Shown: in pieces, positions 498 to 43,185 of the stretch
How positions within the stretch are numbered: the first letter of the stretch is position 1
How the letters are laid out: the number at the start of each line of letters is the position of its first letter
Source of the DNA: Escherichia phage vB_EcoS_PNS1
Direction: 5' to 3' (one strand)
Length of the DNA stretch: 43,945 nt
Sequence record: NC_073063.1
The notes under the pieces: generated by a model
Told to the model about the DNA's origin: nothing
Database searches by the model: none
What the model saw: the letters and a program-made list of their open reading frames with translations, nothing else
Position numbers and translations under genes: made by a program

Positions 498-3137
498 ATG
501 GCAGATCAGGCAGCGGGCATCACGCTCAAGGCGGACGTCGCGCAAATTAAAACGGCTAATACTGTGCTGGACACATTTGCGCAGAAATCCGAGAACACAG
601 AACAGAAAGTAAAGAAATTAAACGACACACTTGGCAAGTCGAAAAAGGTTACTGGCGACGCTGCTGGCGGAATGGAAAAGTTAGCGACTGAATCGCAGCG
701 CGCCGCCGACGGCATGACGAAACAGGAGCGACTCGCCAGCCGATTAGGCATGTCGACCAAAAACCTGGGATTCGCATCGCGGAACGCCGCATTCCAGTTA
801 CAGGATATCGCGGTAACGCTTGAGATGGGTATGCCGGTGCATCGAGTCATGCTTCAGCAGCTACCGCAGCTTACTGGGGCGTTTGGCGGGTTGGGGAATA
901 CGCTGCGTTATGTCGTCGGCACACTCGGCCCGTTAGGGATCGGCATCGCTGCATTAACGGCAACGATGGGCGTAGGCGTGGCGATTATGTCCCGCGCGGA
1001 AAACCAAGTGGCGGCGCTTAACAAGACGCTGGCGCTGTCCGGTAATATTTCTGGCCTAACAGCTAACCAGATACTGGTGCTATCCGAGAACGCCGAGCGG
1101 ATGGGCGGATCATTCCGCAAGACGCGTGACACAATTCAGTCACTGGCGGCGGCTGGTGTGAAAGCTGGTGCGGACTTCGGCGCACTGGCGAAGGTAGTGA
1201 ATGACTTCTCGAAGGTATCCAGCCAGCCGATCGAAGATGTGGTCGCGGCGGTGGCGAAGCTGTCAACCGACCCGGTAGGAGGCTTGCGCGCACTGGCGGA
1301 TAAGTATCACGTCGTAAACGAAGCGCAGATCCAGCAGGTGCAGTCGTTGGTGGATATGGGCCGCGAGACAGACGCAGTTGCGTTGGCTAACAAAACTGCC
1401 GCCGCGTCGTTCACCACTATGACCAACGATATTAAGGCCAACATGGGCACGCTTGAGCGGTCGATGAACGTCGTCACATCGGCAGCTAAATCCATGTGGG
1501 ATGCCATCCTGGATGTGGGCCGCGCGCAGTCCTCCAATGAGTCCGAGATGAAAGCGCGCGAATCACTACAGCGCATGACCACTGCTTACTATGCCGAGAT
1601 GAAAGCGGTAAACGCTGCCGGTGGGGTAATGACTGAAGCGCAGAAAGCACGTATTAACATGCTTTACAGCGAACTGGTCGCCCAGGAAAAAGTGGTGGCG
1701 TCGCTCACCCTGCGTAACCGTGCCGAGCGAGACAACGCCCGCGCCGCAGACGAATCCGCAAAGGCGAACGAGGAGGCCAACCGCACCGCCCGTGACCGAG
1801 CCGCGTTTGAAAAGGAGTACGCAACTAACGCTAAAAAACGCGCCGACGAGATCGCCCGCCTCAATTTGCTGAATAAGCGCGGCGTTATTGATGAGAAAGA
1901 GCTTGCCGAGGCGGTGAAGCAGGTAAACGAGCGCTACAAAGACCCCGCCCCGAAGAAGGCCGCGGCTGTTCGCGTGGATGCCGGTATGAAAATGCTGGAA
2001 GTCGCGCGGAGCGAACTGGCCCAGCTTCGAGAATCCGGCAAGCAGATCGAAGCCAACGCGTCTACGCAGACCCGCACGCAACGCGCTCAAGCGGCCTTAA
2101 ACAAGCTGATCGCCGACAATGAGCAGTTAATTGCTGCGAGCAAAGAAAGAGCGCTAACGGCAGCCGAAAAGCAGCAGATGGCCGAATTCGGACGCGTGAA
2201 GGAAGTGCGCGAGCAGATCGTCGAAGAAGCTAAATTGCTGGACGCGAAAGAGAAGCAGGTTAAGGCGCACGCGCAGATCGATGCCTTCGTTAAGAACCAG
2301 AACGCTGAACTAAAAGCCACCGCCGCGGGCTATGCGCTTTCCACTCGAGAAGCGGCAAACCTGCGTGAAGAATTGCAGCTAATCGACCGCCTGAAGCGTG
2401 TTGGCGCTAACGATACCGATATTGACAAGGCGGTGTCTAAGTTGCGGGAAGTGCAGGAGGCGCAGACCGGTGCTAACGCCTCGCTATGGGATGGCTTCAG
2501 CCGCGGGCTTAAGGATAGCGTGGATGAAATGGGTAACGGATATACGCAGATGGCGTCGCTCACGAAATTTACATTCAGCGCTATGCAAGACTCGATGAAC
2601 GAGTTTTTCGAGACGGGCAAGATTAACGCGAAGGATATGGTCAAATCCATCCTGAGCGAGTTAATCAAGCTGGCTACCTCGCAGGCGTTCAAGTCCATCG
2701 TTGGCGCTTTCGGTGGTGGCGGCAAAAACGGATTGTTCGGCGCTATCTTCTCTGGCCTCACTAAGAATGCGGACGGAGGAGCGTACGCAGGAGGAAATCT
2801 AGCGGCCTATTCGGGTCAGGTGGTAAGCCAGCCTACCTTTTTCAGTTATGGCGTCCAGGCGTTCGCTAAGGGCGCAGGATTGATGGGTGAGGCTGGACCC
2901 GAGGCCATCATGCCACTGAAGCGCGGGCCGGACGGGAAACTGGGCGTTGCCGCGTCTGGCGCAGGCGGTGGTATGGTCGTGACGACTAACGTTTACACGG
3001 GGGCCGGTAAAACGGATACCAGTGTCAGCGGGCCAGACCCCCGTACCGCGCAGGCGTTCGGCAAGCAAATCACCGAAGCGGTGAAGGCTGAGATCGTGAA
3101 AGCGACGAAACCGGGTGGAGTACTGTACAAACGATGA
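498..3137 (+). CDS. tail tape measure protein
   Basis: 879 aa, Ala/Gln/Lys-rich helical protein with Gly-rich C-terminus; sits between chaperone G/G-T and distal tail genes; RBS aaggggg before ATG. Confidence 0.9.
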   Translation: MADQAAGITLKADVAQIKTANTVLDTFAQKSENTEQKVKKLNDTLGKSKKVTGDAAGGMEKLATESQRAADGMTKQERLASRLGMSTKNLGFASRNAAFQLQDIAVTLEMGMPVHRVMLQQLPQLTGAFGGLGNTLRYVVGTLGPLGIGIAALTATMGVGVAIMSRAENQVAALNKTLALSGNISGLTANQILVLSENAERMGGSFRKTRDTIQSLAAAGVKAGADFGALAKVVNDFSKVSSQPIEDVVAAVAKLSTDPVGGLRALADKYHVVNEAQIQQVQSLVDMGRETDAVALANKTAAASFTTMTNDIKANMGTLERSMNVVTSAAKSMWDAILDVGRAQSSNESEMKARESLQRMTTAYYAEMKAVNAAGGVMTEAQKARINMLYSELVAQEKVVASLTLRNRAERDNARAADESAKANEEANRTARDRAAFEKEYATNAKKRADEIARLNLLNKRGVIDEKELAEAVKQVNERYKDPAPKKAAAVRVDAGMKMLEVARSELAQLRESGKQIEANASTQTRTQRAQAALNKLIADNEQLIAASKERALTAAEKQQMAEFGRVKEVREQIVEEAKLLDAKEKQVKAHAQIDAFVKNQNAELKATAAGYALSTREAANLREELQLIDRLKRVGANDTDIDKAVSKLREVQEAQTGANASLWDGFSRGLKDSVDEMGNGYTQMASLTKFTFSAMQDSMNEFFETGKINAKDMVKSILSELIKLATSQAFKSIVGAFGGGGKNGLFGAIFSGLTKNADGGAYAGGNLAAYSGQVVSQPTFFSYGVQAFAKGAGLMGEAGPEAIMPLKRGPDGKLGVAASGAGGGMVVTTNVYTGAGKTDTSVSGPDPRTAQAFGKQITEAVKAEIVKATKPGGVLYKR

Positions 3138-3144
3138 TAAAATG

Positions 3145-3173
3145 GCCCCCACAACCATCGTGGGGGCTTTTCT
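3145..3173 (+). terminator. hairpin plus T-run after tape measure gene (probable attenuator)
   Basis: Stem gcccccac/gtgggggc with 7-nt loop followed by ttttct, immediately before ATG at 3174. Confidence 0.45.
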
Positions 3174-3773
3174 ATGTCACAAGGTACAATCACACTAACG
3201 AACGGAAGTAAGACCGTAACGGGCGCTGGAACGGCGTTCCTTAGCGAGATCGGGAAGGTCCGCGTATTCGCCCGCATCGACGGCAACGACTACACCGGCA
3301 AAATAGCCGCATTCAACTCTGACACTGAAATCACCCTGGCGGATAACTGGGCCGGTCCAACTAAATCAGGTGCGGCATATGAGCTAATCGAAGCACACGA
3401 CCCGCGATCAAACGAATGGCCCTATTACTGGCACATGCAATTGCAGGGCGGCGGCGACGTGCAGTTGGCTTTCCGGTCGGAGGAATTGCAATTCGGTAAC
3501 GGTTACGGTCAGAACATCGCGGACGGCCCGAACGCCGAAACGAAACAGTTCCCCGTGCAATTCATAGGGCTTACTACTGACAAGTGGTGCAATCCCAAAC
3601 TGGTTTACAACTTCCTTCGCGGGCACTTCGTAAAGCCGTTTGTCGTCACCGCGCCGGATGGCGAAACCGGTTTATTCGTGGTCGAGCGTTCGAGCTTGTC
3701 GTACACAGACAACGGGCACTACACGGCAACGGTATCCGCAACCCTTAAAACTGCTATTGGATTCGTAAGATGA
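3174..3773 (+). CDS. minor/distal tail protein (lambda gpM position)
   Basis: First gene after tape measure; N-terminus shares a motif with the tail fiber at 10079. Confidence 0.6.
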   Translation: MSQGTITLTNGSKTVTGAGTAFLSEIGKVRVFARIDGNDYTGKIAAFNSDTEITLADNWAGPTKSGAAYELIEAHDPRSNEWPYYWHMQLQGGGDVQLAFRSEELQFGNGYGQNIADGPNAETKQFPVQFIGLTTDKWCNPKLVYNFLRGHFVKPFVVTAPDGETGLFVVERSSLSYTDNGHYTATVSATLKTAIGFVR

Positions 3774-5301: not shown

Positions 5302-5909
5302 CCACGTTTAAATTATACGGCGTTTTAGGACGTCGATTCGGTAAAGTGCATAAGCTGGATTGCTTCACTCCTGGCGAGGGTATCACCGGCCTGTGCGTGA
5401 AGTTACCCGGCTTACAGGACTTTCTAATGTCGGCCCACCTGGACAATATGATGTTCAAGGTGCGCAAAGGCGACCACACGATGACCGGCTATGATGAGTT
5501 GGGCGAGTTCCACGGCAACCGCGTAGTTACCATCGCGCCGGTTATGACGGGCGCAAAAAGAGGTCTGGGCCAATTGCTGGCGGGTGTGGTAATAGTGGTG
5601 GCGTCGTTCTATACCGGCGGACTTGCTACCGCCGCTTTCGGGGCTTCGGCTGCAACCGCTGCCGCTATTGGGACAGCGACGTTTTCGTTCGGCATGTCGC
5701 TTGCGCTGGGCGGTGCTATGCAATTGCTGTCCCCACAGCCGAAAGGATTGCAGACACGGCAGGACGTGGATAACAAAGCGTCGTATGCGTTCGGCGGACC
5801 GGTAAACACGACCGCACAAGGTACGGCACTTGGTGTATTATGGGGCGAGCGTGAGATCGGCGGCGCTATTATTTCAGCCGGAATCGTAACCGAGGACTTA
5901 AACGAATGA
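5292..5909 (+). CDS. tail assembly protein, lambda gpI-like
   Basis: Synteny directly upstream of J-like gene; Gly/Ala-rich hydrophobic C-terminal half. Confidence 0.7.
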   Translation: MAMTTFKLYGVLGRRFGKVHKLDCFTPGEGITGLCVKLPGLQDFLMSAHLDNMMFKVRKGDHTMTGYDELGEFHGNRVVTIAPVMTGAKRGLGQLLAGVVIVVASFYTGGLATAAFGASAATAAAIGTATFSFGMSLALGGAMQLLSPQPKGLQTRQDVDNKASYAFGGPVNTTAQGTALGVLWGEREIGGAIISAGIVTEDLNE

Positions 5910-8900
5910 CGATTGTATACGACGTCACAGGCCATAAAGGCGGCGGAGGCAAACAGCACACCCCACAGGAGACGCCAGATAGCCTGCATTCGCTGGCTAA
6001 AATCCGCATCTTGCTTGCGCTGGGGGAAGGGGAATTCGAAGGCATTACGAGCGCCAGCGAATTACGGCAGCGCGTATATCTGGACGGAACACCGATCCAG
6101 AATGCAGATCTGTCTGAAAACTTCCCCGGAGCGCGCGTGGAGTTCCGCCCCGGCACACAGCACCAGGATGTGATCCACGGATTTTCAGCGGTGGAAAGTG
6201 AGCAATCCGTCGGTGTAAAACTGGAAAACGGTACGCCGTGGGTGCGCCAGATTAACGACACCAGTCTTGACGCCGTGCGCGTTCGCATCGGCATTCCTGC
6301 CCTGTACACTAGCGAAGATAATGGCGACCTGGTGGGTGGGCGCATCGACTATAAGATCGTTGTGTATACGGATAACGCCGACCCGCGTGAGTTTACCTTC
6401 GCTGCCGTTGGTAAAACAATGTCTCTATACGAGCGCGATCACCGCATCGAGCTACCGCCGAACGTTAACACGGGCTGGCGCGTGGAGGTGCACCGCATAA
6501 CGGCAGACTCCACATCGGCAAAAGTGGTTAACAATATCCGGGTGCAATCTATTACTGAGATTATCGACGCCCGTCTTCGATACCCGCTAACCGCGCTGTT
6601 GTTCGTGGAGTTCGACGCTAAAGCGTTCCAGAACATCCCGCGCGTGTCCATCAAGTGCAAAGGCCGCAAAGTTCTAATACCTAACAACTACGACCCTATT
6701 AATCATACCTATTCGGGGGACTGGGACGGCACGTTCAAACGTGCATGGACGGATAACCCTGCGTGGCACTGGTACGATATTTGTATTACTGAGCGCTTCG
6801 GCCTCGGTCGTCGGATCAAACCGCAAATGCTGAACCGGTACGCGCTCTACCAGATCGCGCAGCGCTGCGATCAGTTGGTCAGCGACGGCAACGGCGGACG
6901 GGAAATCCGATTTAAGAATGATATGTACATCCAGTCGCAGACAGACGCCTGGACCGTGCTTAAGGATTTAGCTGCCATCTTCGCCGGGATGACCTGGTGG
7001 GGAAACCAAATGTTGAATATCGTCAGTGACCAACCGGTCGCAGCAGTGTCGCACACTATCACCAACGCCTCGGTAATTGATGGGCGATTCGACTACGCAT
7101 CCGGCAGCCAGAAAACTCGGTATTCAACTTTCGCGGTCGCATACGGCAACCCGAAAAACCACTATGATGACGCTATCGCAACGGGCCAGCGCGTCGAACT
7201 GGTACGCCGCCATAAGATAAACCGTCTTGATATCACAGCGATCGGCTGTACGCGCGAGTCAGAAGCGCAACGCCGAGGGCACTGGGCGCTAATCTCAAAC
7301 CAGCTTGATCAGCAAGTTAGTTTTAAGGTTGGCATGGAGGGGTTATTCTTTATCCCCGGTAGCGTAGTCGCGATCGCAGATACTAATATATCCGGCGGAT
7401 TCGAGACTCGCGGCGGTCGCCTGTTGTCAGACCCTGGAACGCGTACCGTGCTTAACACAGACAGCGAAATCACATTCCGCCCTGGTGATAAGTTCTTGGT
7501 GCGCACCGATAGCGGAAATGTGGAGACTCGCGAGATCGCCAGCGTCAACGGCAACAAGGTCACGCTAAAAACCGCACTGGATGCCGACCCGATTCCAGAC
7601 CAACCGTTTTGCGTTGATGGCGACGATATCCAGTTGCAAAAATTCCGCATCACCGACCTGGAATATGACGACTCTACGAGCACTTTCTCAGTGCGCGGGA
7701 TTGAATACAACGATAGTAAGTATGATGCCGTTGATAATGGCGCTCGCCTTGACCCAGGCATCTTTACGCAAGTGCCGGACGGTGTAATGAAGGGGCCGGA
7801 ATCCGTGACCATCACCCCGTCGCAGATCTCATCGCAAGGCCAGCTAATCACCAACGTGGATATTGTTTTCCCGCCGGTGAAAGATGCCGTGGTGTATGAA
7901 ATCCAGTGGAGGCGTACTAGCCTGCAGAATATGGAGATCCAGTGGGGTAACGACTGGGTGAATATCCCGCGCACGGCGTCGAATGGGGCGCACATTCCTA
8001 ACGTGTTCTCCGGTAACTATCAGGCACGAGTCCGCGCAATTGGCATGGGCGAAATCTCGTCCCCGTGGGTGTCTTCCGCGGTCACGCCGGTGGAAGGTCG
8101 CCTCGGTGGGCTTAACGCCCCAATCATCACCAACGCGATTTCGGGTCTGCATCAAATTCTATGGAAGTGGAATCACAACAACGCTGCGACTGATATCTCA
8201 TACACCGAGCTTGAAGTGCGCAAGACGGGTGAAACGGAATGGAAATTCTTAACAAACGTCCCATATCCTGGCGCGGAGTACGCGCAAACGTCGCTGGAGT
8301 TCGGCATATACCAGCAGTTGCGCGCCCGTGTAGCGGATAAAATCGGCAACCTGTCTGACTGGTCCGCCCCGTTCGAAGGCCAGGTGAGTGACAAAGTTGA
8401 CGAGTACATGAAGGGGCTTGATGACGAGTTCTTGACTTCCGAGGACGGTAAACGCTTCCAGGAAGCGATCGAAACCATGCCGCAAGGCATTTATGAAGCC
8501 ATGCTCACCGACGCGCAGCAATTGTTCAACGCCCGCGCCGAGTACAAGGGTATCTATGCGGAAATCTCGGTCGCGTATAACGTGGCGTCGGACGCCCACA
8601 AGGCGGTCGCTCAACTGGAGACGTTGATCGGCACGCGACTTGACGATGCGGAAGCGGCGATCCACACGTTGCAGACAGCGCAAAGCACGCACGAACAAGC
8701 GTTCGCCCAGTACCAGCAAACTGTTGCCGCTAAGTTCGGGGAGCAGGAAGCCGCCATCCAGCAGGTGCAAACGGCAACGGCAGACGTAGCGGGCGCGCTG
8801 GCGGAGTACAAGACCCAGGTCGCGGCACAGTTCGGTCAGCAGTCCGCCGCTATCGAGCAGAAGATGACGTCCACGTTTAACCATGCCGGTGGCAACGCCA

Positions 8901-9721
8901 CATACAGCCTTAAGGCGGGCGTGACGTATAACGGGACTTACTACGATGCCGGTATGCAGCTTTCAGTTGTTGCGGAAGGTGGCGCGGTTAAATCCCGCAT
9001 CGCGTTCAAGGCGGACCAGTTCTACATTATGCACCCGTCGAATGGGTCGCTTTCGTCCGCGTTTATCGTCGACGGCGGGCAGGTGTATATCGACACGGCA
9101 CGAATCAAGGACGCCTCCATCAACTTTGCACAGATCACGGACACGCTACAATCCAACAACTGGATTCCAGGGAGCAGGGGTTGGCGTATCGCGAAAGACG
9201 GAGGAGCGGAGTTTAACGCAGTAACGGTACGCGGCAACGTGTATGCGAATGATGGCGTGTTTAATGGTACGGTTTATGCAAGGGATGGTGTATTTACCGG
9301 AACGGTCGAAGCTACCAGCTTTGTCGGGGATATCGCCAATATGTATGTTATTGGCGAGAAAGCGATACCCAACACAGATAGGAATGGGTCGAGATCGTGG
9401 TCGGTGACTTTCAACGACTCGTCCAGGTCATCTAAACTCAAAGACTTTGTGTTGCTGTTAAGTTACTCACTGGTCGGGTATACCGCAAACCGGTCAAGTC
9501 GCATAGTGGTTACTGCCAATATTGGCGGGCATGTAGTCTCGAGGTCCATTGAGCGAGCGGCAAGCGGAAACTCAATCCATACGACGATTCCATTAGCTGT
9601 GAAGGGCGTGGCACAGGGAAGTGTACGAATTACAGTTACGGAAAAGTATACAAACGTCTACAGCAGTACATTGCACCCGTCTGTAATATTGATGACCAGA
9701 GGTACTGGTAGCTGGTCGTAA
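5906..9721 (+). CDS. central tail fiber / host specificity protein, lambda gpJ-like
   Basis: 1271 aa; N-terminal and central regions recall lambda J; conserved position after I-like gene. Confidence 0.9.
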   Translation: MTIVYDVTGHKGGGGKQHTPQETPDSLHSLAKIRILLALGEGEFEGITSASELRQRVYLDGTPIQNADLSENFPGARVEFRPGTQHQDVIHGFSAVESEQSVGVKLENGTPWVRQINDTSLDAVRVRIGIPALYTSEDNGDLVGGRIDYKIVVYTDNADPREFTFAAVGKTMSLYERDHRIELPPNVNTGWRVEVHRITADSTSAKVVNNIRVQSITEIIDARLRYPLTALLFVEFDAKAFQNIPRVSIKCKGRKVLIPNNYDPINHTYSGDWDGTFKRAWTDNPAWHWYDICITERFGLGRRIKPQMLNRYALYQIAQRCDQLVSDGNGGREIRFKNDMYIQSQTDAWTVLKDLAAIFAGMTWWGNQMLNIVSDQPVAAVSHTITNASVIDGRFDYASGSQKTRYSTFAVAYGNPKNHYDDAIATGQRVELVRRHKINRLDITAIGCTRESEAQRRGHWALISNQLDQQVSFKVGMEGLFFIPGSVVAIADTNISGGFETRGGRLLSDPGTRTVLNTDSEITFRPGDKFLVRTDSGNVETREIASVNGNKVTLKTALDADPIPDQPFCVDGDDIQLQKFRITDLEYDDSTSTFSVRGIEYNDSKYDAVDNGARLDPGIFTQVPDGVMKGPESVTITPSQISSQGQLITNVDIVFPPVKDAVVYEIQWRRTSLQNMEIQWGNDWVNIPRTASNGAHIPNVFSGNYQARVRAIGMGEISSPWVSSAVTPVEGRLGGLNAPIITNAISGLHQILWKWNHNNAATDISYTELEVRKTGETEWKFLTNVPYPGAEYAQTSLEFGIYQQLRARVADKIGNLSDWSAPFEGQVSDKVDEYMKGLDDEFLTSEDGKRFQEAIETMPQGIYEAMLTDAQQLFNARAEYKGIYAEISVAYNVASDAHKAVAQLETLIGTRLDDAEAAIHTLQTAQSTHEQAFAQYQQTVAAKFGEQEAAIQQVQTATADVAGALAEYKTQVAAQFGQQSAAIEQKMTSTFNHAGGNATYSLKAGVTYNGTYYDAGMQLSVVAEGGAVKSRIAFKADQFYIMHPSNGSLSSAFIVDGGQVYIDTARIKDASINFAQITDTLQSNNWIPGSRGWRIAKDGGAEFNAVTVRGNVYANDGVFNGTVYARDGVFTGTVEATSFVGDIANMYVIGEKAIPNTDRNGSRSWSVTFNDSSRSSKLKDFVLLLSYSLVGYTANRSSRIVVTANIGGHVVSRSIERAASGNSIHTTIPLAVKGVAQGSVRITVTEKYTNVYSSTLHPSVILMTRGTGSWS

Positions 9722-9726
9722 TAAAC

Positions 9727-9752
9727 AAAAAACCCCTCACGCGAGGGGTTAA
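9727..9752. terminator. bidirectional rho-independent terminator between J gene and convergent lipoprotein gene
   Basis: Stem aacccctc/gaggggtt with A-run upstream and T-run downstream. Confidence 0.5.
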
Positions 9753-9755
9753 CTT

Positions 9756-9998
9756 TTAATAATCAATGACGCAGTTTGAAGGCGAACCAATCCTTCGGTG
9801 TTCGTGGCTAATCTCCTGGCACCACTGACCCGTATAAGGTAGCTTTTCGGTATCGTAAACCAAAGACCCGTCTTCATGTCGCTCAATAGGCTGAGGTATT
9901 ACACCCGAATTTGGAACGCCTGTGTTTACGCCATTGCCACATGCTGTCATCAGAAGGCACGCCGCGGGTATTATCAGATTTTTGATTAAAGTTTTCAT
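9756..9998 (-). CDS. small lipoprotein, candidate Cor/Llp-like superinfection exclusion protein
   Basis: Internal ATG at 9998 with GGAG RBS gives 80 aa starting MKTLIKNLIIPAACLLMTAC (signal peptide plus lipobox-like Cys); sits between J and tail fiber genes. Confidence 0.55.
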   Translation of the reverse strand: MKTLIKNLIIPAACLLMTACGNGVNTGVPNSGVIPQPIERHEDGSLVYDTEKLPYTGQWCQEISHEHRRIGSPSNCVIDY

Positions 9999-10078
9999 GG
10001 TATAATCTCCGGTATTGGGTTGAGTTTTAGTATTACACCGCTCAATCAAGAATGCAACCAATTTAAGAGGATTTAGCT

Positions 10079-11581
10079 ATGGCAGCGGGTACGCTCTCTG
10101 TAACGAATAACAGCAAGGCGGTTGTCGGGGTAGGCACGGCGTTTACCTCGTTTACAGCTGGCGACTTCTTAACGCTGGTGGTGGGGCAAGTGCCCTACAC
10201 TGTTGCGATCGCGTCCGTCGAAAGCGACACCGCGCTTACGCTTGTGCTGCCGTTCGACGGCCCAACGGCAACGGGACTCGCCTGGGACGGCATCAAACGT
10301 GACACCATGTCACTTGCAACGATGGGCGTGACCGTCCAGGCGCAGAAAGCGCTACGCTTGATGATGGCGGATGAAAACAACTGGCGTGCAATCTTCGGCG
10401 ACGCTGAAGAAATCACCGTTACGCTGCCCAGCGGGCAAGTTATGCAGGGTATGTCATGGGGCTACCTGTCATCCTTGCTGAAGGACGTTGACCCCGTTGA
10501 GATGCGCAACCTGCAACAACAAGCCACCGCATCTGAAGCCGCAGCGCAGGGATTTCGCGATCAGGCCGAGGAGTGGGCGAAAAGCGTAAATGCGGATAAT
10601 CTGCTAACAAAATCCGGCAACCTGGCGGGCCTGGCTGACCAATCGGCGGCACGCGTCAATCTCGGTCTTGACCGCCTCGAGCAGTCTACATATGACACTA
10701 GACTTTTTGACGCTTCAGGCGGCTATTACTTCTTTATTGCAGATTCTGATTGGGGGTGTGTCCATAATACTGCCCCGGATTATCCACGCATTGCGTTACC
10801 AGTAGCCAGTGGTGGAACTGGGGGAACAACAGAGTATTCAGCGTGTCAAAATCTACGTGCGCTCAACTGTGCCTATGATATCAACACAAATTACGGTTCT
10901 GAACAATTGTATACAGGTATCGGATTTTACGGCCGAGATGTGTCACCGCAGCCTGGGGGTGACGGCGGGCCTTTCGGCTGGGCCGAGATTATGACAATTG
11001 CGGAGGGGGGTGGTGGCCCTGGATCGGTGGGTAACTGGTCACAGATCGGTTTTTCCACTGCCGCCTCACAGGCCCCGCGCTACCGTCAACGCATAGCCAA
11101 CCCGGGGCAGGTTACTAACTGGCGGGATTTCTTAATTCGTGACCTAAACACCACTGTTGACAGCAACGGTTTTATTAAAATCGCATCCCCTATTGTGAAA
11201 ATCAAAGGTGACGGGACCGCAGAGTTTAACGACGAGTCCGAAGGTTGCTCTGTAACACGGGTGTCCAAAGGTGTTTATGTAATATCGGGTTGTCTGGGCC
11301 TCAATTCCGACGCGTCATGGGGCGGGGTCAATGGCGGCTTTGAGATACCGGTAGATGTAAACAAGCAACCTTTGTTGTGGCTGGATTATGAAGTATTGGA
11401 TGAGGGAAGTATTGAGATTCGCACCTACCACCGCACGCATACTAACGCGCCTAAGTTCGCGAGAAATATTATTGACGGTATCGAAGACGGCGATCCGATA
11501 GATATCCCACCAAGCACCTACATCTCTGTTAGGGTGCAAATGCCCACAACAGGATTGGAAACAGCCACGAGTAGTGCGTAG
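10079..11581 (+). CDS. tail fiber protein
   Basis: 500 aa Gly/Ser/Thr-rich protein downstream of J module; RBS agagga. Confidence 0.7.
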   Translation: MAAGTLSVTNNSKAVVGVGTAFTSFTAGDFLTLVVGQVPYTVAIASVESDTALTLVLPFDGPTATGLAWDGIKRDTMSLATMGVTVQAQKALRLMMADENNWRAIFGDAEEITVTLPSGQVMQGMSWGYLSSLLKDVDPVEMRNLQQQATASEAAAQGFRDQAEEWAKSVNADNLLTKSGNLAGLADQSAARVNLGLDRLEQSTYDTRLFDASGGYYFFIADSDWGCVHNTAPDYPRIALPVASGGTGGTTEYSACQNLRALNCAYDINTNYGSEQLYTGIGFYGRDVSPQPGGDGGPFGWAEIMTIAEGGGGPGSVGNWSQIGFSTAASQAPRYRQRIANPGQVTNWRDFLIRDLNTTVDSNGFIKIASPIVKIKGDGTAEFNDESEGCSVTRVSKGVYVISGCLGLNSDASWGGVNGGFEIPVDVNKQPLLWLDYEVLDEGSIEIRTYHRTHTNAPKFARNIIDGIEDGDPIDIPPSTYISVRVQMPTTGLETATSSA

Positions 11582-11587
11582 CGCTGG

Positions 11588-11618
11588 AAAAAGGGCCATA
11601 AGGCCCTTTTTTTTTTTT
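11588..11618. terminator. bidirectional rho-independent terminator between convergent operons
   Basis: Stem aaagggcc/ggcccttt flanked by A-run and an 11-nt T-run. Confidence 0.6.
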
Positions 11619-12192
11619 AGTTTGAGTTTTCCCAGTCCATTTTTCGCCGCACCAGTGGGCTTTCGTAATATTCCTTACCTTCAACTTCCACTAAAGGCCA
11701 ATCGTTCACGATCACGTATGGCTCTGCTATATCCTCAATAACACCGTGCGCGCTATGCTGCCCGAACGACACACCGACCAGAATAACACCGGCAACTCGA
11801 CGAGCAAGATACTCGCGAGCGCAACGTGCCTCGACCAGTCCTCGACGGATGCCGCTGGTGGCCTTAACCTCGTAGGCCCATACGGCATCGACCACATGCT
11901 CGCGGAAGTCGGGACCGGACTTCACCTTGCGCTTTCCAACCATGATAATATCGCCGCGGTCAATGGTGTTGGCACTAAACAGGCCGGTACGCATCAGTAA
12001 GCCTTGCGGGATACAACTACGCCCGCCAGCCTGACCCTCAAGGTACATTCCTGCAAACATCTCGCCCAGCACACCGACAAGACGGCTTTGCTTGCACGCG
12101 TCAGACTTTAGGCGCCACTGGTCAAACTCGATGCTTGCTATCATTGCCGCCAGATGGAATTGTTTACCTGATATTTCATATTCGCCGTACAT
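11617..12192 (-). CDS. hypothetical protein, possible PD-(D/E)XK-type nuclease
   Basis: 191 aa; GPD...x13...EVK arrangement resembles PD-(D/E)XK core; GAGGA RBS; last gene of minus-strand operon. Confidence 0.35.
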   Translation of the reverse strand: MYGEYEISGKQFHLAAMIASIEFDQWRLKSDACKQSRLVGVLGEMFAGMYLEGQAGGRSCIPQGLLMRTGLFSANTIDRGDIIMVGKRKVKSGPDFREHVVDAVWAYEVKATSGIRRGLVEARCAREYLARRVAGVILVGVSFGQHSAHGVIEDIAEPYVIVNDWPLVEVEGKEYYESPLVRRKMDWENSN

Positions 12193-29490: not shown

Positions 29491-29781
29491 ATGGATAAGC
29501 TAAACGAGTGGCTATTCGCCCTGGCATGTCTGGCGGGTGGCTTCGTAGGCGCACGCATTCATGGCGATGCTACGAAAGGGCCGCTAAACTTCGTTTTGTA
29601 TGTTGTAGTTGGCTTCCTGTGTGCCATATTTGGCGCACCGGCTATCGCTGAGTGGGCTGGTTTGTCGGGTGAGCGCACTGTCGCCGGTTTGGGCTTCGTA
29701 ACCGCGATCTTCTGGATGCCAATCGCCGACCGGATCAGGGAGACTATTGCGTCGTTCCGACTTCCGGGGGGTGCAAAATGA
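29491..29781 (+). CDS. holin-like membrane protein
   Basis: 96 aa with predicted transmembrane segments; directly upstream of endolysin. Confidence 0.5.
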   Translation: MDKLNEWLFALACLAGGFVGARIHGDATKGPLNFVLYVVVGFLCAIFGAPAIAEWAGLSGERTVAGLGFVTAIFWMPIADRIRETIASFRLPGGAK

Positions 29782-30023
29782 TTATCTCCGTCCTGTTGTT
29801 TGTTATCATCGGGGCTTCGTCCCTGTTTAACGTGTATGCGCCGTCCGTCCAGGATGGCATTTTCGGTCGGGTGCTGTATCTGTTAACGGCAATGGTCTGT
29901 ATTATCGGATTGTTGCAAACAGGAGACGTATCTGATACCACCTGGACCGCGTTAATATGGCTGTTTGCATTGCGCACACTGCGTAATGCTGTTTTGAATG
30001 GGGTAAAACATGCGATTCAGTGA
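29778..30023 (+). CDS. membrane protein (holin/antiholin candidate)
   Basis: 81 aa, two hydrophobic helices; overlaps neighbours on both sides. Confidence 0.45.
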   Translation: MIISVLLFVIIGASSLFNVYAPSVQDGIFGRVLYLLTAMVCIIGLLQTGDVSDTTWTALIWLFALRTLRNAVLNGVKHAIQ

Positions 30024-30501
30024 TAACGGTCTCCGATTTACGGCAGCATGGGAGGCGTTCAGCCCGGTGCCGTATTTCGCGACCAAGAAAGAGCAGGCCC
30101 GCGGCCTGTACACCTGGGGTTATGGGCACACCGGCACTAATCCGCCTCGAAGCATTACCCGTGCGGAAGCGCTGGAACTGCTCAAGCGCGATGTGGCGTA
30201 TGCCGAGGACTGGGTGAACAAATACGCACATCCGAGCATTAACCAGGCGCAATTCGACGCGCTGGTGGACCTGGTAATCAACGCCGGTCCTGGTCCGATC
30301 GTACCGGATGACGTCGCTAACGATTTCGATGATGCGGTGCGACTGGGCGACTGGGCGAAGGTCCGTGCTACGCTGCCGCAGTTCCGCAAGCAAGGCGGGG
30401 AAGTGCTTAAAGGTTTGGTCCGCCGAGCAATCGGCAGACAGGCGTTGTTTGATGGTAAGCAGTGGGACGTTGCCGAGCGAATCGGGCGTAACGCCGCATA
30501 A
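30010..30501 (+). CDS. endolysin, phage lysozyme (GH24-like)
   Basis: 163 aa; E...D...T catalytic spacing with TWGYGHTG motif. Confidence 0.85.
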   Translation: MRFSDNGLRFTAAWEAFSPVPYFATKKEQARGLYTWGYGHTGTNPPRSITRAEALELLKRDVAYAEDWVNKYAHPSINQAQFDALVDLVINAGPGPIVPDDVANDFDDAVRLGDWAKVRATLPQFRKQGGEVLKGLVRRAIGRQALFDGKQWDVAERIGRNAA

Positions 30502-35663: not shown

Positions 35664-36750
35664 TCAATATATGGCGGATCGAATGATTCGCCGACACATC
35701 TTCACCCAGCGCCTGAGTAATGACCAGGCGCGGCGGGTGCTGGCTATGTGGGAGAAGTTCCGGCCCACGTTACTGGGTAAGCTGACCGAGTTACTTGATG
35801 GCAAAAAGTCCATGAACAACAAGGCACTTACCACTCTGTTAACGCAACTCGACAAGACCGTTAAAACAGAACTGCGCACCGAGTTTAAGGCGCTGGCTGA
35901 AAGCCTTCAGGAGTTTGCCGACACCGAGGCCGATTATCTCGCCGACACATTAACGGCAGCGATCCAGCCGGTGGTCGCCGTACCTGCGGTCGAGGTGGTG
36001 GGGGTAGTAACAGGCGCGCAGATCGCAGCGACGGCTATGAAAAACCCGTTCCAGGGTAACACCATGATGCAGTGGCCCGATTCACTTTCCGAGTGGACCA
36101 GGACGCAGATCGGCAATCAGGTGCGCGCCGGATTCATCCAGGGCAAGCCGACGATGGAAATTATCGCGGATGTGAGGCGCGCGCTAGGCGGTCGTAGTGC
36201 GCAAGCAATCTCAAGCGTTGTTAAGTCCGCGGTCAACCACTATGCGGCGACCGCCCGCGAATTAATGGTAAAAGCTAATGACGATATTCTCGAAGGTCGC
36301 CAATGGTTGGCTACATTGGACACACACACGTCACCCATGTGCCAGCTACGCGATCGCCTGTTTTATCCGGTTGATGTTACTTCCGACACCAAAGGCAAGC
36401 GCGGCGGGAAAGTGGTGGCGGGATCACAATACGGCGCTGGTCCGGGCAAGCTGCATTATTGCTGCCGTTCGACGGAGACGTGGAAAGTCAAAGGTATGGA
36501 AGATTGGCCCAGTGGTAAGCGTCCGGCACTGAAGGATGACGCAGGCAGATTGCTGAGTGAGCAGGTAGACGCGCAGACTGATTTCTTCTCATGGGTGCAG
36601 CGCCAGCCGCGCCATATCCTGGAGGAGTTATATGGAGTGCAACGCGCCGACCAGATTATGCGCGGCGTGAAAGTGCCGAAGATGTTTACCGATTCTGGCG
36701 AACTGATGACTATTGCGCAGCTTAAAAACCGGGGGTTATGGCGTGATTAA
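35647..36750 (+). CDS. head morphogenesis / minor head protein (SPP1 gp7, Mu F-like)
   Basis: 367 aa directly after portal, start overlapping portal end. Confidence 0.75.
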   Translation: MAKTINQYMADRMIRRHIFTQRLSNDQARRVLAMWEKFRPTLLGKLTELLDGKKSMNNKALTTLLTQLDKTVKTELRTEFKALAESLQEFADTEADYLADTLTAAIQPVVAVPAVEVVGVVTGAQIAATAMKNPFQGNTMMQWPDSLSEWTRTQIGNQVRAGFIQGKPTMEIIADVRRALGGRSAQAISSVVKSAVNHYAATARELMVKANDDILEGRQWLATLDTHTSPMCQLRDRLFYPVDVTSDTKGKRGGKVVAGSQYGAGPGKLHYCCRSTETWKVKGMEDWPSGKRPALKDDAGRLLSEQVDAQTDFFSWVQRQPRHILEELYGVQRADQIMRGVKVPKMFTDSGELMTIAQLKNRGLWRD

Positions 36751-37072
36751 ATATGCAGCAATCGGACTGGTTATCGGTCTGGTGGTAGGATTCTGGCTAG
36801 GTGACTCCTATCGTGCTGGCGTAGTGGCGGAGGCGGCGCAAGAAGCGCAAGCCGAAGCCCAACGGCAGCAAACTAAAGTTATTGAGCGCTCCGTGCAGGC
36901 CGAACAAGCCCGCGACGTAGAATACCGGACTATAACGAAAGAGGTTGTTAAATATGTTACGCGCCCTAACCGCCCTGATTGTAGTTTTGATGCTGAGCGC
37001 GTGCGGATCAAGCAACGTGCCGTTGATGCCGCTAACGGAGTCGGCACTGCGTCCGCCGTGCAAGTTCGATAG
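36743..37072 (+). CDS. i-spanin (Rz-like)
   Basis: N-terminal transmembrane helix (AAIGLVIGLVVGFWLG) then charged helical region (AQEAQAEAQRQQ...); start GTG 36743 or TTG 36713. Confidence 0.65.
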   Translation: MIKYAAIGLVIGLVVGFWLGDSYRAGVVAEAAQEAQAEAQRQQTKVIERSVQAEQARDVEYRTITKEVVKYVTRPNRPDCSFDAERVRIKQRAVDAANGVGTASAVQVR

Positions 37073-37184
37073 CCCGTCCGCAGACCCCGACGAGGATTTG
37101 ATGATTGACGTGAAAAATATGGAATGCGGGGCGAAGCTAAGGGCGCAGGTGCTGGAGTTGCAGCAAATAATTAAGGGGCCGTAA
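36954..37184 (+). CDS. o-spanin (Rz1-like lipoprotein), overlapped with i-spanin gene
   Basis: MLRALTALIVVLMLSAC signal peptide with lipobox LSAC, Pro-rich mature part; starts inside the i-spanin gene in another frame. Confidence 0.7.
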   Translation: MLRALTALIVVLMLSACGSSNVPLMPLTESALRPPCKFDSPSADPDEDLMIDVKNMECGAKLRAQVLELQQIIKGP

Positions 37185-41979: not shown

Positions 41980-42398
41980 GCAATACTCTAATCCGCAAGG
42001 CGCTTAACAGCGTGGTTGAAGAATTATCGGTAAGCCTCAGCACCAGCCAGCGTCCGATCCAGGTTAACTGGGAGAACGTTAGCGGCGACCACGCAAACGG
42101 CAGCGGTGTCTACCTGGAGCCGTACCTGCTACCGGCCCCGACCCAGTTTGTGGGCTTCCAGCAGAAGGGCCGGATCTATGCTGGCGTATATCAGGTTGCC
42201 GTGGTGTTTCCAGCGGGCACGGGCACACAGTACGCGAGCGAACTGGCGGACGCCATCGCGACGTCGGATAAGTGGCTGGCGGTGAAGATTTCGGGAGCGG
42301 CCTTCCAGCTTCAGGACTCGCCTTATACCAGTTCGGTGGTCGAGGACGTTGATCGCGCCCGCATCGTGGTTACAGTCCCCTACACCTGTTGCGCCTGA
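41976..42398 (+). CDS. tail completion / terminator protein
   Basis: 140 aa, coupled to upstream gene, directly upstream of major tail gene. Confidence 0.5.
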   Translation: MSNTLIRKALNSVVEELSVSLSTSQRPIQVNWENVSGDHANGSGVYLEPYLLPAPTQFVGFQQKGRIYAGVYQVAVVFPAGTGTQYASELADAIATSDKWLAVKISGAAFQLQDSPYTSSVVEDVDRARIVVTVPYTCCA

Positions 42399-42459
42399 TT
42401 TGGCGCAATTCTGCGCGTGCTGTATCATTAAACCGTATATCTAAACAGGAGCGTTCATT

Positions 42460-43185
42460 ATGGGTTATCAACTTCCTAACGGGTCCAGCGTCCAGATCGG
42501 GTCCGTACTAGGCAATGGTATCGCGGTTACGGCAGCTACCAACGCCGCTGCGTCGATCTCCGACCTTACGCAAGGTTGCGTAATTACCTGCGCGGAGTCT
42601 CACGGTCTGGTTGTTGGCGACGTTGTTATGTTCACTAAAACCCCGTGGGTCCGTGCGCTGAACCGCGCGTTCATCGTGGGTAAAGTGTCAGGGAACGACG
42701 TGACGCTGGCGCGCTTCGATACTCAAGACGCCACCAAATACCCGACCGGTGCTTTCGGCGTAGGCACACCGGGTGAGGTCGTGAAGGTGTCGAGCTTTAT
42801 CGACTTCCCGTTTATCACTAACGTTGCCGTGTCGGGTGGCGACCAGCAGACCACCACCTTCCAGCCGTTGCAGGTGAATACCGCGATCAGTCTGAACACC
42901 ACGAAAAACCCGTTGGTCCAGACCTACACTTTCACCCACGACGAAGAAGACCCGATCCGCCCGATTCTGGAAGACCTGGACGACACACAGAAAACCACTG
43001 TGATTAAGTTCACTAACCCGGCAGCGGCAAGCGGCAAAGGTGAAATCCGCATTTACCCGGCTAAGGTGTCTTTCCGCAAGATTCCGTCGGCTGAAGTAAA
43101 CAACGTGGAGACGGTGGAGTCCACCCTCACTATGCAGTCCGATATGGTTATTTACCGTAAGGACTTGGTCGAGGCGCTGTCGTAA
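42460..43185 (+). CDS. major tail protein
   Basis: 241 aa, AGGAG RBS, followed by a terminator and then the G/G-T chaperone genes. Confidence 0.75.
   Translation: MGYQLPNGSSVQIGSVLGNGIAVTAATNAAASISDLTQGCVITCAESHGLVVGDVVMFTKTPWVRALNRAFIVGKVSGNDVTLARFDTQDATKYPTGAFGVGTPGEVVKVSSFIDFPFITNVAVSGGDQQTTTFQPLQVNTAISLNTTKNPLVQTYTFTHDEEDPIRPILEDLDDTQKTTVIKFTNPAAASGKGEIRIYPAKVSFRKIPSAEVNNVETVESTLTMQSDMVIYRKDLVEALS

What the first reader, a model, noticed from the sequence alone, without database searches (positions are those of the whole stretch)
9756..9998. Small lipoprotein on the opposite strand between the J-like and tail-fiber genes
An 80-aa product with a signal peptide and lipobox-like Cys is encoded convergently between two receptor-binding genes and has its own terminator. 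This placement matches the Cor/Llp-type lipoproteins that inactivate the phage receptor to block superinfection.
Basis: inference. Interest (0 to 1): 0.5.

Follow-up and report, generated by a model that had tools for sequence, protein, structure and literature searches.

The report
LamB-linked phage superinfection-exclusion lipoprotein
This small gene next to the tail-tip gene of a T1-like coliphage really does encode a lipoprotein. It is a clear relative of a phage lipoprotein recently shown to make E. coli resistant to phages that enter through the maltoporin LamB, so it is a real but largely already-explained feature.

Summary
Window 9756-9998 (- strand) is a real, conserved 80-aa gene. 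It has a signal peptide and a lipobox Cys20, and it shares a bidirectional terminator with the convergent J gene.

The functional idea, a receptor-blocking superinfection-exclusion lipoprotein, is well supported. The named families are wrong:
- It does not match Cor/Llp (phrog_1119, NCBIfam NF047972).
- It does not match the Rtp45 type (Pfam PF24052).
- It belongs to phrog_12984.

It is 53% identical over its full length to Lpp010 of phage mEp010. When Lpp010 is expressed from a plasmid, it excludes the LamB-dependent phages mEp010, mEp044, mEp554 and lambda (PMC11893012). Homologues at 65-75% identity occur in the four LamB-dependent BASEL Seuratviruses.

In this Dhillonvirus, the J C-terminal receptor-binding domain plus the lipoprotein (9243-9984) replace the usual "separate RBP + Rtp45-type lipoprotein" cassette. 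The leader, ribosome-binding site and first codons of the lipoprotein slot are kept.

The likely mechanism is an outer-membrane-anchored, periplasm-facing lipoprotein that disables LamB as a phage receptor. This is inferred. Binding to LamB has not been shown for any family member, and this phage's own receptor is untested.

Verdict: new member of a known kind, with modest interest.

The parts
9756..9998 (-). Prolipoprotein CDS of 80 aa, stop codon included. Member of phrog_12984 and orthologue of the mEpimmI 'type-C' Lpp (Lpp010).
   Evidence: ORF and translation. phrog_12984 at E=8e-41. 53% identity to mEp010_116. Purifying selection.
9942..9998 (-). Signal peptide, residues 1-19 (MKTLIKNLIIPAACLLMTA). 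The lipobox is LMTA|C, and the lipid-modified Cys20 codon is at 9939-9941.
   Evidence: PS51257-type pattern match and hydropathy. Cys invariant in 18/18 homologues.
9759..9941 (-). Mature lipoprotein, 61 aa, about 6.75 kDa, pI about 5.0. Conserved motifs are PNSGVIP and DTEKLPxTGQWCxE..H..RRIGSPSNC. The Cys60/Cys76 pair is a probable disulfide.
   Evidence: Alignments A1 and A3. C76 is invariant and C60 is present in 17/18. The disulfide is inferred by analogy with Llp (Cys11-Cys58) and Rtp45 (Cys30-Cys38), read.
9731..9750 (.). Bidirectional intrinsic terminator hairpin lying between the convergent stop codons of J and the lipoprotein gene.
   Evidence: Found on both strands. Stem -13.4 kcal/mol, z -2.8. 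Analogous terminators are annotated in mEp010 and mEp044.
9999..10078 (-). Leader and control region of the lipoprotein gene. It contains SD GGAG at 10007-10010, a possible extended -10 TGTAATACT at 10029-10037, and a weak -35 TTGCAT at 10052-10057. It is a conserved Dhillonvirus backbone element shared with phages that carry a different lipoprotein allele.
   Evidence: Coordinates. Near-identity to HK1 upstream of its Rtp45-type lipoprotein. The consensus scan found no canonical sigma-70 promoter here, so the promoter is only tentative.
9243..9721 (+). C-terminal receptor-binding extension of the J-like tail-tip protein, residues about 1114-1271. It is the partner half of the exchanged cassette and replaces the separate RBP gene of other Dhillonviruses.
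   Evidence: DNA homology to HK1 stops at 9242 and resumes at 9985. Other Dhillonvirus J proteins match only up to about residue 1119. End-to-end alignment with the J C-terminus of LamB-dependent mEp010.
5906..9242 (+). Conserved trunk of the J-like central tail fibre protein. This is context: the gene with which the lipoprotein gene converges.
   Evidence: Pfam FNIII-A_GpJ, Phage-tail_3 and Phage_Tail_Tip. phrog_31.

Best explanation
The gene encodes a 61-residue mature lipoprotein. It is exported, cleaved by signal peptidase II and lipidated at Cys20. With Gly at +2 it is sorted to the inner leaflet of the outer membrane, facing the periplasm.

It is the superinfection-exclusion / 'lytic conversion' factor of this Dhillonvirus. 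Made in the infected cell, it inactivates the phage's terminal receptor, most probably the maltoporin LamB. As a result, progeny and competing LamB-dependent phages do not adsorb productively to infected cells or to their debris.

It forms one exchangeable host-recognition cassette (about 9243-9984) together with the C-terminal receptor-binding domain of J.

Shown here:
- The gene is real.
- It has lipoprotein signals.
- It belongs to the Lpp010 family.
- The cassette architecture and its boundaries.

Shown by others for homologues:
- Lpp010 excludes LamB-dependent phages, including the unrelated lambda.
- Seuratviruses that carry the gene depend on LamB.

Inferred:
- That this copy does the same.
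- That it binds LamB directly from the periplasmic side, by analogy with Llp-FhuA and Rtp45-LptDE.
- That this phage itself uses LamB.
For: 1. Family: phrog_12984 at E=8e-41. The same PHROG is hit by mEp010 Lpp010 and by KurtStettler bas22_0021.

2. Characterised homologue: 53% identity and no large gaps against mEp010_116. Residues K2, A11, Q38 and V40 of that sequence match the paper's description of Lpp010. Plasmid-expressed Lpp010 excluded mEp010, mEp044, mEp554 and lambda. The unrelated type-A lipoprotein excluded only the OmpA-dependent phages (PMC11893012). Exclusion therefore follows the receptor. Lambda's J tip is not homologous to these J tips (1-17% identity), which points to action on the receptor rather than on a particular phage protein.

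3. Receptor correlation: homologues at 65-75% identity occur in BASEL Bas21-24, all LamB-dependent. None of the three LptD-dependent Queuovirinae (Bas19, 20, 25) appears among the rows listed (2 of the 42 matching records were not displayed).

4. Synteny: the gene lies immediately downstream of J and convergent with it in Dhillonvirus, Seuratvirus, mEpimmI phages, MagusPhagus and a Salmonella prophage contig.

5. Slot equivalence: compared with Dhillonvirus HK1, homology breaks at 9242 and resumes at 9985, inside the signal-peptide codons. The leader, RBS and first five codons (MKTLI) are shared with HK1's lipoprotein. HK1's lipoprotein is 36% identical to Rtp45, which is the structurally proven LptDE exclusion lipoprotein (PMC12685063).

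6. Conservation pattern: the mature lipoprotein is 62-77% conserved across lineages, while the J tip is only 22-37% conserved. This is expected if the lipoprotein contacts a conserved part of a host protein.

7. Strong purifying selection on the gene.
Against: - No member of this family has been shown to bind LamB, to block adsorption rather than a later step, or even to be lipidated.
- The window's J tip is only about 25% identical to the J tips of proven LamB users, so this phage's receptor is inferred, not known. No Dhillonvirus with this allele was found with a tested receptor.
- mEp013, which is LamB-dependent, escapes Lpp010, so exclusion is not absolute for all LamB users.
- LamB has no plug domain, so the Llp-type 'reverse allostery' cannot simply be carried over.
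- This copy has Met at lipobox position -3, which fails the strict lipobox pattern.
- No canonical promoter was detected.
- The AlphaFold models are of low confidence (pLDDT 62-63). They gave no structural match, so structure adds nothing.
- Klebsiella Weberviruses with a distantly related J tip lack the lipoprotein.
Confidence: 0.75

Rival explanations
1. It is a member of the Cor/Llp family that jams the TonB-dependent transporter FhuA.
For: It has the same size, the same lipoprotein nature and the same position next to the receptor-binding determinant. T1 cor is likewise convergent with the tail genes, and T5 llp lies next to oad.
Against: - No hit to phrog_1119 or to NCBIfam NF047972 'phage exclusion lipoprotein Cor', whereas T1 Cor scores 55.8 bits and T5 Llp hits phrog_1119.
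- BLASTP of the mature part against Llp and Cor finds nothing at E<=100.
- A profile search of 1.84 billion representative proteins recovered only this narrow family.
- Characterised relatives track with LamB, not FhuA.
Confidence: 0.03
2. It excludes superinfecting phages at a step after adsorption. For example, it could block tail-tip or tape-measure insertion, or DNA passage across the periplasm, as the Ltp lipoprotein of Streptococcus phage TP-J34 does. It would not disable LamB itself.
For: The mEp study measured only plaque or spot formation, not adsorption. mEp013, a LamB user with a similar J tip (69-80% identity), escapes exclusion. A simple 'LamB is shut' model does not easily explain this.
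Against: - The exclusion spectrum follows the receptor across phages with unrelated tail tips and tape measures. Lambda is excluded, while OmpA-using siblings are excluded by a different lipoprotein.
- The gene travels as a cassette with the receptor-binding domain, not with the tape measure.
- The two structurally solved lipoproteins in this genomic slot or class both act on the receptor.
Confidence: 0.1
3. It is an exclusion lipoprotein, but in this Dhillonvirus the cognate receptor is an outer-membrane protein other than LamB. Alternatively, the lipoprotein targets LamB only to exclude competitors while the phage itself uses another receptor.
For: The window and HH3 J tip is a distinct subtype, only 22-26% identical to the J tips of proven LamB users. 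No receptor data were found for any phage with this subtype.
Against: - The mature lipoprotein is 75% identical to that of LamB-dependent KurtStettler, and all conserved motifs are intact.
- In every tested small siphovirus, the locus allele has matched the receptor 'without exception' (BASEL).
- The J tips still align end to end and share the terminal (S/T)RG(S/T)GS(W/F) motif.
Confidence: 0.08
4. It is a lysis protein (an o-spanin, Rz1-like) or some other structural or assembly lipoprotein, not an exclusion factor.
For: o-Spanins are also outer-membrane lipoproteins of about 60 aa with conserved Cys residues.
Against: - A canonical overlapped Rz/Rz1 pair is present elsewhere, at 36713-37072 and 36954-37184. 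It hits Rz-like spanin PHROGs at E=4e-36 and 4e-26.
- No i-spanin partner lies next to 9756-9998.
- The gene is allelic with receptor type among Dhillonviruses.
- A homologue has exclusion activity.
Confidence: 0.02

Closest known systems
Lpp010 (gp116, 'type-C' Lpp) of temperate coliphage mEp010 and the other mEpimmI phages (Negrete-Mendez et al. 2025, PMC11893012)
   Same: - Same sequence family (phrog_12984).
- 53% identity over the full length, with all conserved motifs and both downstream Cys residues.
- Same lipobox Cys.
- Same position, convergent with and immediately after J, with a shared terminator.
- Lpp010 is the only experimentally tested member. It excludes LamB-dependent phages, including lambda.
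   Different: - The window copy sits in a virulent Dhillonvirus, so it would act as a lytic-conversion factor rather than a prophage-expressed one.
- It has a shorter linker after the Cys (GNGVNTG versus AVDKEAALHNL).
- It has Met at lipobox position -3.
- The small ORF found between the lipoprotein and the tail fibre in mEp010, mEp044 and MagusPhagus is absent.
- The associated J tip is a different subtype, about 25% identical.
Unnamed lipoproteins of LamB-dependent Seuratvirus/Nonagvirus phages (BASEL Bas21-24, CAjan, Seurat, 9g)
   Same: - 65-75% identity.
- Same family.
- Same J-convergent position with no separate RBP gene.
- Virulent small siphoviruses, as here.
   Different: None has been tested functionally. 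Their J tips belong to the mEp010-like subtype (62-68% identical to mEp010) rather than the window subtype.
Rtp45 of phage Rtp and the Oekolampad/HK1-type Dhillonvirus lipoproteins (Pfam PF24052). These are exclusion lipoproteins that bind LptDE (PMC12685063).
   Same: - They occupy the identical genomic slot in Dhillonvirus.
- Leader, RBS and first five codons are shared with HK1.
- Same size and lipoprotein nature.
- Presumably the same logic of a periplasmic lipoprotein disabling an outer-membrane receptor.
   Different: - No sequence homology in the mature part. PF24052 scores 12.6 bits against a cut-off of 27, and BLASTP gives E>5.
- Paired with a separate RBP gene rather than a J extension.
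- The target is LptDE, not LamB.
Llp of T5 and Cor of T1/phi80/N15 (phrog_1119, NCBIfam NF047972). These are exclusion lipoproteins that act on FhuA.
   Same: - Works in the same way: a mature outer-membrane lipoprotein of about 60 aa.
- An intramolecular Cys pair.
- Encoded beside the receptor-binding determinant, often on the opposite strand.
   Different: - Not a family member by any sequence test.
- Llp works through the plug domain of a TonB-dependent transporter. LamB has no plug domain, so the molecular mechanism must differ.

Membership tests
Type-C Lpp / phrog_12984 (Lpp010 family) | Significant full-length sequence similarity to Lpp010 and to the PHROG profile | tested here: met
   phrog_12984 at E=8e-41 over residues 7-80. 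BLASTP against mEp010_116 gives 53% identity, E=2e-30. Lpp010 itself hits the same PHROG at E=1e-26.
Type-C Lpp / phrog_12984 (Lpp010 family) | Lipoprotein signal peptide with an invariant lipobox Cys | tested here: met
   PS51257-type pattern matched, with Cys20. The Cys is invariant in 18/18 sequences. The strict [LVI][ASTVI][GAS]C pattern fails in this copy only, because of Met at -3.
Type-C Lpp / phrog_12984 (Lpp010 family) | Located immediately downstream of, and convergent with, a J gene whose C-terminus carries the receptor-binding domain | tested here: met
   Window, HH3, KurtStettler, mEp010, mEp044, mEp013, MagusPhagus and Salmonella contig L011.
Type-C Lpp / phrog_12984 (Lpp010 family) | Expression excludes LamB-dependent phages | not testable with these tools
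   Shown only for Lpp010 (PMC11893012). It needs a plating and adsorption assay with this ORF.
Cor (T1/phi80/N15) exclusion lipoproteins | Match to NCBIfam NF047972 or phrog_1119 | tested here: not met
   No hit at E<=0.1 in either library, while T1 Cor scores 55.8 bits and E=3e-30. BLASTP finds no alignment.
Cor (T1/phi80/N15) exclusion lipoproteins | Inactivates FhuA | not testable with these tools
   Homologues correlate with LamB rather than FhuA.
Llp (T5) lytic-conversion lipoprotein | Sequence similarity to Llp | tested here: not met
   BLASTP of the mature regions gives no alignment at E<=100. Llp falls in phrog_1119 and the query does not. The PDB sequence search returned no Llp chain.
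Rtp45-type phage lipoprotein (Pfam PF24052, phrog_4281) | Score above the Pfam gathering threshold | tested here: not met
   12.6 bits against a cut-off of 27, E=0.14. Rtp45 scores 128 bits. Lpp010 and the KurtStettler homologue give no hit.
Rtp45-type phage lipoprotein (Pfam PF24052, phrog_4281) | Occupies the exclusion-lipoprotein slot of the small-siphovirus RBP locus downstream of gpJ | tested here: met
   Same slot, leader, RBS and first codons as the HK1 lipoprotein. This is positional equivalence only, not homology.
Bacterial lipoproteins (SPase II substrates) | n-region with positive charge, hydrophobic h-region, and a lipobox ending in Cys within residues 15-35 | tested here: met
   SignalP and LipoP were not available. 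Lipidation itself cannot be tested here.
o-Spanin (Rz1-like) | Encoded within, overlapping or next to an i-spanin gene in the lysis module | tested here: not met
   There is no i-spanin nearby. The genuine Rz/Rz1 pair is at 36713-37184.

The most novel reading that the evidence does not exclude
LamB is a plug-less trimeric porin. This lipoprotein family may therefore disable a receptor by a mechanism different from the two solved cases, which are Llp jamming the FhuA plug and Rtp45 sterically deforming LptD. For example, it could enter or cap the LamB channel from the periplasm, perturb trimer assembly, or reach the cell surface. The much stronger conservation of the lipoprotein (62-77%) than of the co-transferred J tips (22-37%) would then mark a conserved, druggable periplasmic site on LamB. 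The mEp013 escape would define how a receptor-binding domain can evade exclusion.
Probability: 0.35. Interest if true: 0.55.

Novelty: new member of a known kind. Interest (0 to 1): 0.3.

Why it matters
It fixes the annotation of a gene that is 'hypothetical' or not called at all in its closest relatives (HH3, Maverick, CS16, EP23). It also links a virulent Dhillonvirus cassette to an experimentally characterised exclusion protein.

It further shows that the J receptor-binding tip and the exclusion lipoprotein are exchanged as one unit, with the recombination junction inside the signal-peptide codons.

Practical uses:
- It supports predicting LamB as this phage's receptor from sequence.
- It warns that cells infected by such phages, or engineered to express the gene, may become resistant to lambda-like and other LamB-dependent phages.
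- It offers a compact 61-aa tool for probing LamB.

The biology of lipoprotein-mediated exclusion is already established, so this extends existing knowledge rather than adding a surprise.

Tried and rejected
1. Structure route. AlphaFold2 was run on the full-length alignment (18 sequences) and on the mature-only alignment (15 sequences). Both gave low confidence (mean pLDDT 63.2 and 62.4, pTM 0.37). Foldseek against the PDB gave no match below E=6. I ran no further fold searches, because a low-confidence model gives meaningless hits.

2. PDB sequence search. It returned only chance hits (E>=0.27), with no Llp or Rtp45 chain.

3. Profile HMM of the mature region against 1.84 billion representatives. 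Only three genuine clusters came back. The three long repetitive proteins (P0020-P0022) match a KLPxTGxW-like repeat by chance.

4. The weak Pfam PF24052 hit (E=0.14). I rejected it as membership. It is below threshold and is absent for the closest homologues.

5. Promoter. The consensus scan found nothing in the 80-bp leader. Only a weak -35 plus an extended -10 can be proposed by eye.

6. Klebsiella Weberviruses with a related J tip. I looked for a diverged copy of the lipoprotein and found none. The 49-aa ORF there has no signal peptide.

7. A published receptor for any Dhillonvirus with this allele. None was found.

8. Whether mEp013's escape from Lpp010 reflects the window-type J tip. It does not. 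The mEp013 tip is 69-80% identical to those of mEp010 and mEp044.

9. PADLOC and NCBIfam. They gave no hits other than noise from the signal peptide.

Full report
**Observation**

The window is an essentially complete genome of a Dhillonvirus-type small siphophage. It is about 93% identical to phages such as vb_EcoS_bov22_1 and HK1 over 20 kb.

- At 9756-9998 on the - strand there is an ATG-initiated ORF of 80 codons, MKTLIKNLIIPAACLLMTACGNG....
- A GGAG Shine-Dalgarno sequence lies 8 nt upstream of the ATG.
- The ORF fills the 357-bp gap between the J-like tail-tip gene (5906-9721, +, 1271 aa; Pfam FNIII-A_GpJ, Phage-tail_3, Phage_Tail_Tip) and the lateral tail fibre gene (10079-11581, +, 500 aa).
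- It converges with J and diverges from the fibre gene.
- A GC-rich 8-bp hairpin at 9731-9750 sits between the two convergent stop codons and reads as an intrinsic terminator on both strands. The better U-tract is on the - strand.
- The N-terminus has two lysines, a hydrophobic core and Cys20 preceded by LMTA. This fits the PROSITE-type lipoprotein pattern. The Met at -3 fails the strictest lipobox.
- Gly at +2 predicts outer-membrane sorting (established Lol rule).

The gene is not a chance ORF. Between lineages, synonymous sites are saturated (pS 0.77-0.87) while pN is 0.23-0.34. dN/dS is 0.09 against the closest relative. The only correction is that the terminator is shared with J.

**What it is**

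The protein hits one PHROG, phrog_12984 'lipoprotein', at E=8e-41. The large protein collection holds only 17 clusters of homologues. A profile of the mature region searched against 1.84 billion representatives finds only three genuine clusters. The family is therefore narrow.

In the alignment, several features are invariant or nearly so:
- the lipobox Cys;
- the PNSGVIP motif;
- the block DTEKLPxTGQWCxE..H..RRIGSPSNC...Y;
- two further Cys residues, C60 and C76, which are a probable disulfide.

tblastn against phage genomes finds three groups of homologues:
- 95-97% identical copies in four Dhillonviruses: HH3, EP23 (where the gene is not even annotated), Maverick and CS16;
- 65-75% identical copies in Seuratvirus/Nonagvirus phages: CAjan, Seurat, 9g and BASEL Bas21-24;
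- 53-55% identical copies in the temperate mEpimmI phages mEp010, mEp044 and mEp554, and in MagusPhagus.

In every lineage examined, including a Salmonella prophage contig, the gene lies directly after J and convergent with it.

**Link to function**

Three published data sets bear on the family.

1. The BASEL S5 table lists all four Seuratviruses that carry a homologue (Bas21-24) as LamB-dependent. None of the LptD-dependent Queuovirinae (Bas19, 20, 25) appears among the listed tblastn rows; 2 of the 42 matching records were not displayed.

2. Negrete-Mendez et al. 2025 (PMC11893012) showed that mEp010, mEp013, mEp044 and mEp554 require LamB. They also showed that plasmid expression of the mEp010 'type-C' lipoprotein Lpp010 (gp116) excludes mEp010, mEp044, mEp554 and, unexpectedly, lambda. 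A different lipoprotein type excludes the OmpA-dependent siblings.
   - I confirmed that mEp010_116 is that protein. Residues K2, A11, Q38 and V40 are as the paper describes.
   - The window protein is 53% identical to it over the whole length.

3. A 2026 preprint reports that distal GpJ domains, not separate RBPs, specify LamB in these phages. It also reports that lambda's own tip is not homologous to them. I reproduced both points. The window J aligns end to end with the mEp010 J C-terminus. It aligns with lambda J only up to the 'VGDI' motif that precedes the tip.

**Cassette structure**

Most Dhillonviruses, for example HK1, carry the following after a shorter J: a separate RBP gene and then a 74-aa lipoprotein, both on the - strand. 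That lipoprotein is 36% identical to Rtp45. Cryo-EM shows Rtp45 bound to the periplasmic side of LptDE, where it blocks RBP binding (PMC12685063).

Against HK1, DNA homology stops at window 9242 (J residue 1113) and resumes at 9985, inside the signal-peptide codons. The 5' leader, RBS and first five codons (MKTLI) are shared by the two otherwise unrelated lipoprotein genes.

The window therefore carries a 742-bp 'J tip + lipoprotein' module in place of the 1.3-kb 'RBP + lipoprotein' module. Its lipoprotein sits in exactly the exclusion-factor slot and uses the same expression signals.

Across lineages, the mature lipoprotein is 62-77% conserved while the last 125 residues of J are only 22-37% identical. 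This fits a lipoprotein that contacts a conserved host surface, paired with fast-evolving receptor-binding tips.

**Mechanism (best explanation, confidence about 0.75)**

The protein is exported, lipidated at Cys20 and anchored in the inner leaflet of the outer membrane. There it most probably disables LamB as a phage receptor. This protects infected cells from superinfection and protects progeny from being lost on cell debris.

Lpp010 blocks lambda, whose tip is unrelated. That argues the target is the receptor rather than a phage protein.

Still inferred:
- direct binding to LamB;
- the periplasmic side as the site of action;
- an adsorption block rather than a later block;
- LamB as this phage's own receptor, because its J-tip subtype is only about 25% identical to the proven LamB binders and I found no receptor data for a phage with this subtype.

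LamB has no plug, so the Llp/FhuA 'reverse allostery' cannot simply be copied. mEp013 escapes Lpp010 even though its J tip is of the same subtype.

**Rivals**

- Membership of Cor/Llp is rejected. There is no hit to phrog_1119 or NCBIfam NF047972, although T1 Cor and T5 Llp hit them, and BLASTP finds no alignment.
- Membership of the Rtp45 family is rejected, at 12.6 bits against a cut-off of 27.
- A spanin role is rejected. A canonical overlapped Rz/Rz1 pair lies at 36713-37184.
- A post-adsorption block, or a cognate receptor other than LamB, remain minor possibilities.

**What led nowhere**

The structure predictions were of low confidence and gave no fold match. No canonical promoter was detected in the leader.

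**Novelty and verdict**

The gene is a new, virulent-phage member of an already characterised kind, the Lpp010-type, LamB-linked exclusion lipoproteins. It sits in a locus that the BASEL papers already describe as encoding RBPs together with their cognate exclusion factors.

Interest is modest. What remains open is how a periplasmic lipoprotein shuts a plug-less porin.

Noticed in passing
window 36713-37072 (+) and 36954-37184 (+): An overlapped, out-of-frame Rz/Rz1 spanin pair. The i-spanin is 119 aa with an N-terminal TM segment. The o-spanin is 76 aa with lipobox LSAC. The pair lies just after the head-morphogenesis gene, about 6.5 kb from the holin/endolysin cassette (29491-30501) rather than inside it.
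   Followed up: partly
window 9985-10078 versus L013 (HK1) 42376-42470: The recombination junction of the receptor cassette falls inside the signal-peptide codons. Two unrelated lipoproteins therefore share the same leader, RBS and first five residues (MKTLI).
   Followed up: yes
NC_016566 / JN984867 (Shigella phage EP23) 21711-21950: A 96%-identical copy of the lipoprotein gene is present in the EP23 reference genome but has no annotated feature. In HH3, Maverick and CS16 it is labelled hypothetical.
   Followed up: no
L009 (Klebsiella Webervirus K6PH25C3) 3080-3272: J ends in a tip domain distantly related to the window's (28-38% identity) and carries the same terminal RGSGSW motif. No lipoprotein gene follows it, only a 49-aa ORF without a signal peptide, and then a tailspike gene.
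   Followed up: partly
L004 2111-2239 (mEp010_117), L002 2747-2860 (mEp044_111), L010 3390-3506 (MagusPhagus), L014 7119-7238 (mEp013_105): In the temperate relatives, a tiny ORF of 37-42 aa sits immediately upstream of the lipoprotein gene on the same strand. It is absent from the window and from the Seuratviruses. A 44-aa ORF with a DUF5384 hit lies just downstream of the lipoprotein gene in contig L012 (2500-2634). Function unknown.
   Followed up: no
window 10079-11581 (+): Only the first approximately 500 nt of the lateral tail fibre gene are shared with other Dhillonviruses (homology to HK1 and HH3 ends near 10570-10645). The distal part, which has a Phage_tail_C_2 domain, is a second independently exchanged host-range module.
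   Followed up: partly
window 11617-12192 (-): A conserved 191-aa protein of unknown function (phrog_10558, E=4e-118). It lies directly after the tail fibre gene, convergent with it, and has no Pfam domain.
   Followed up: no
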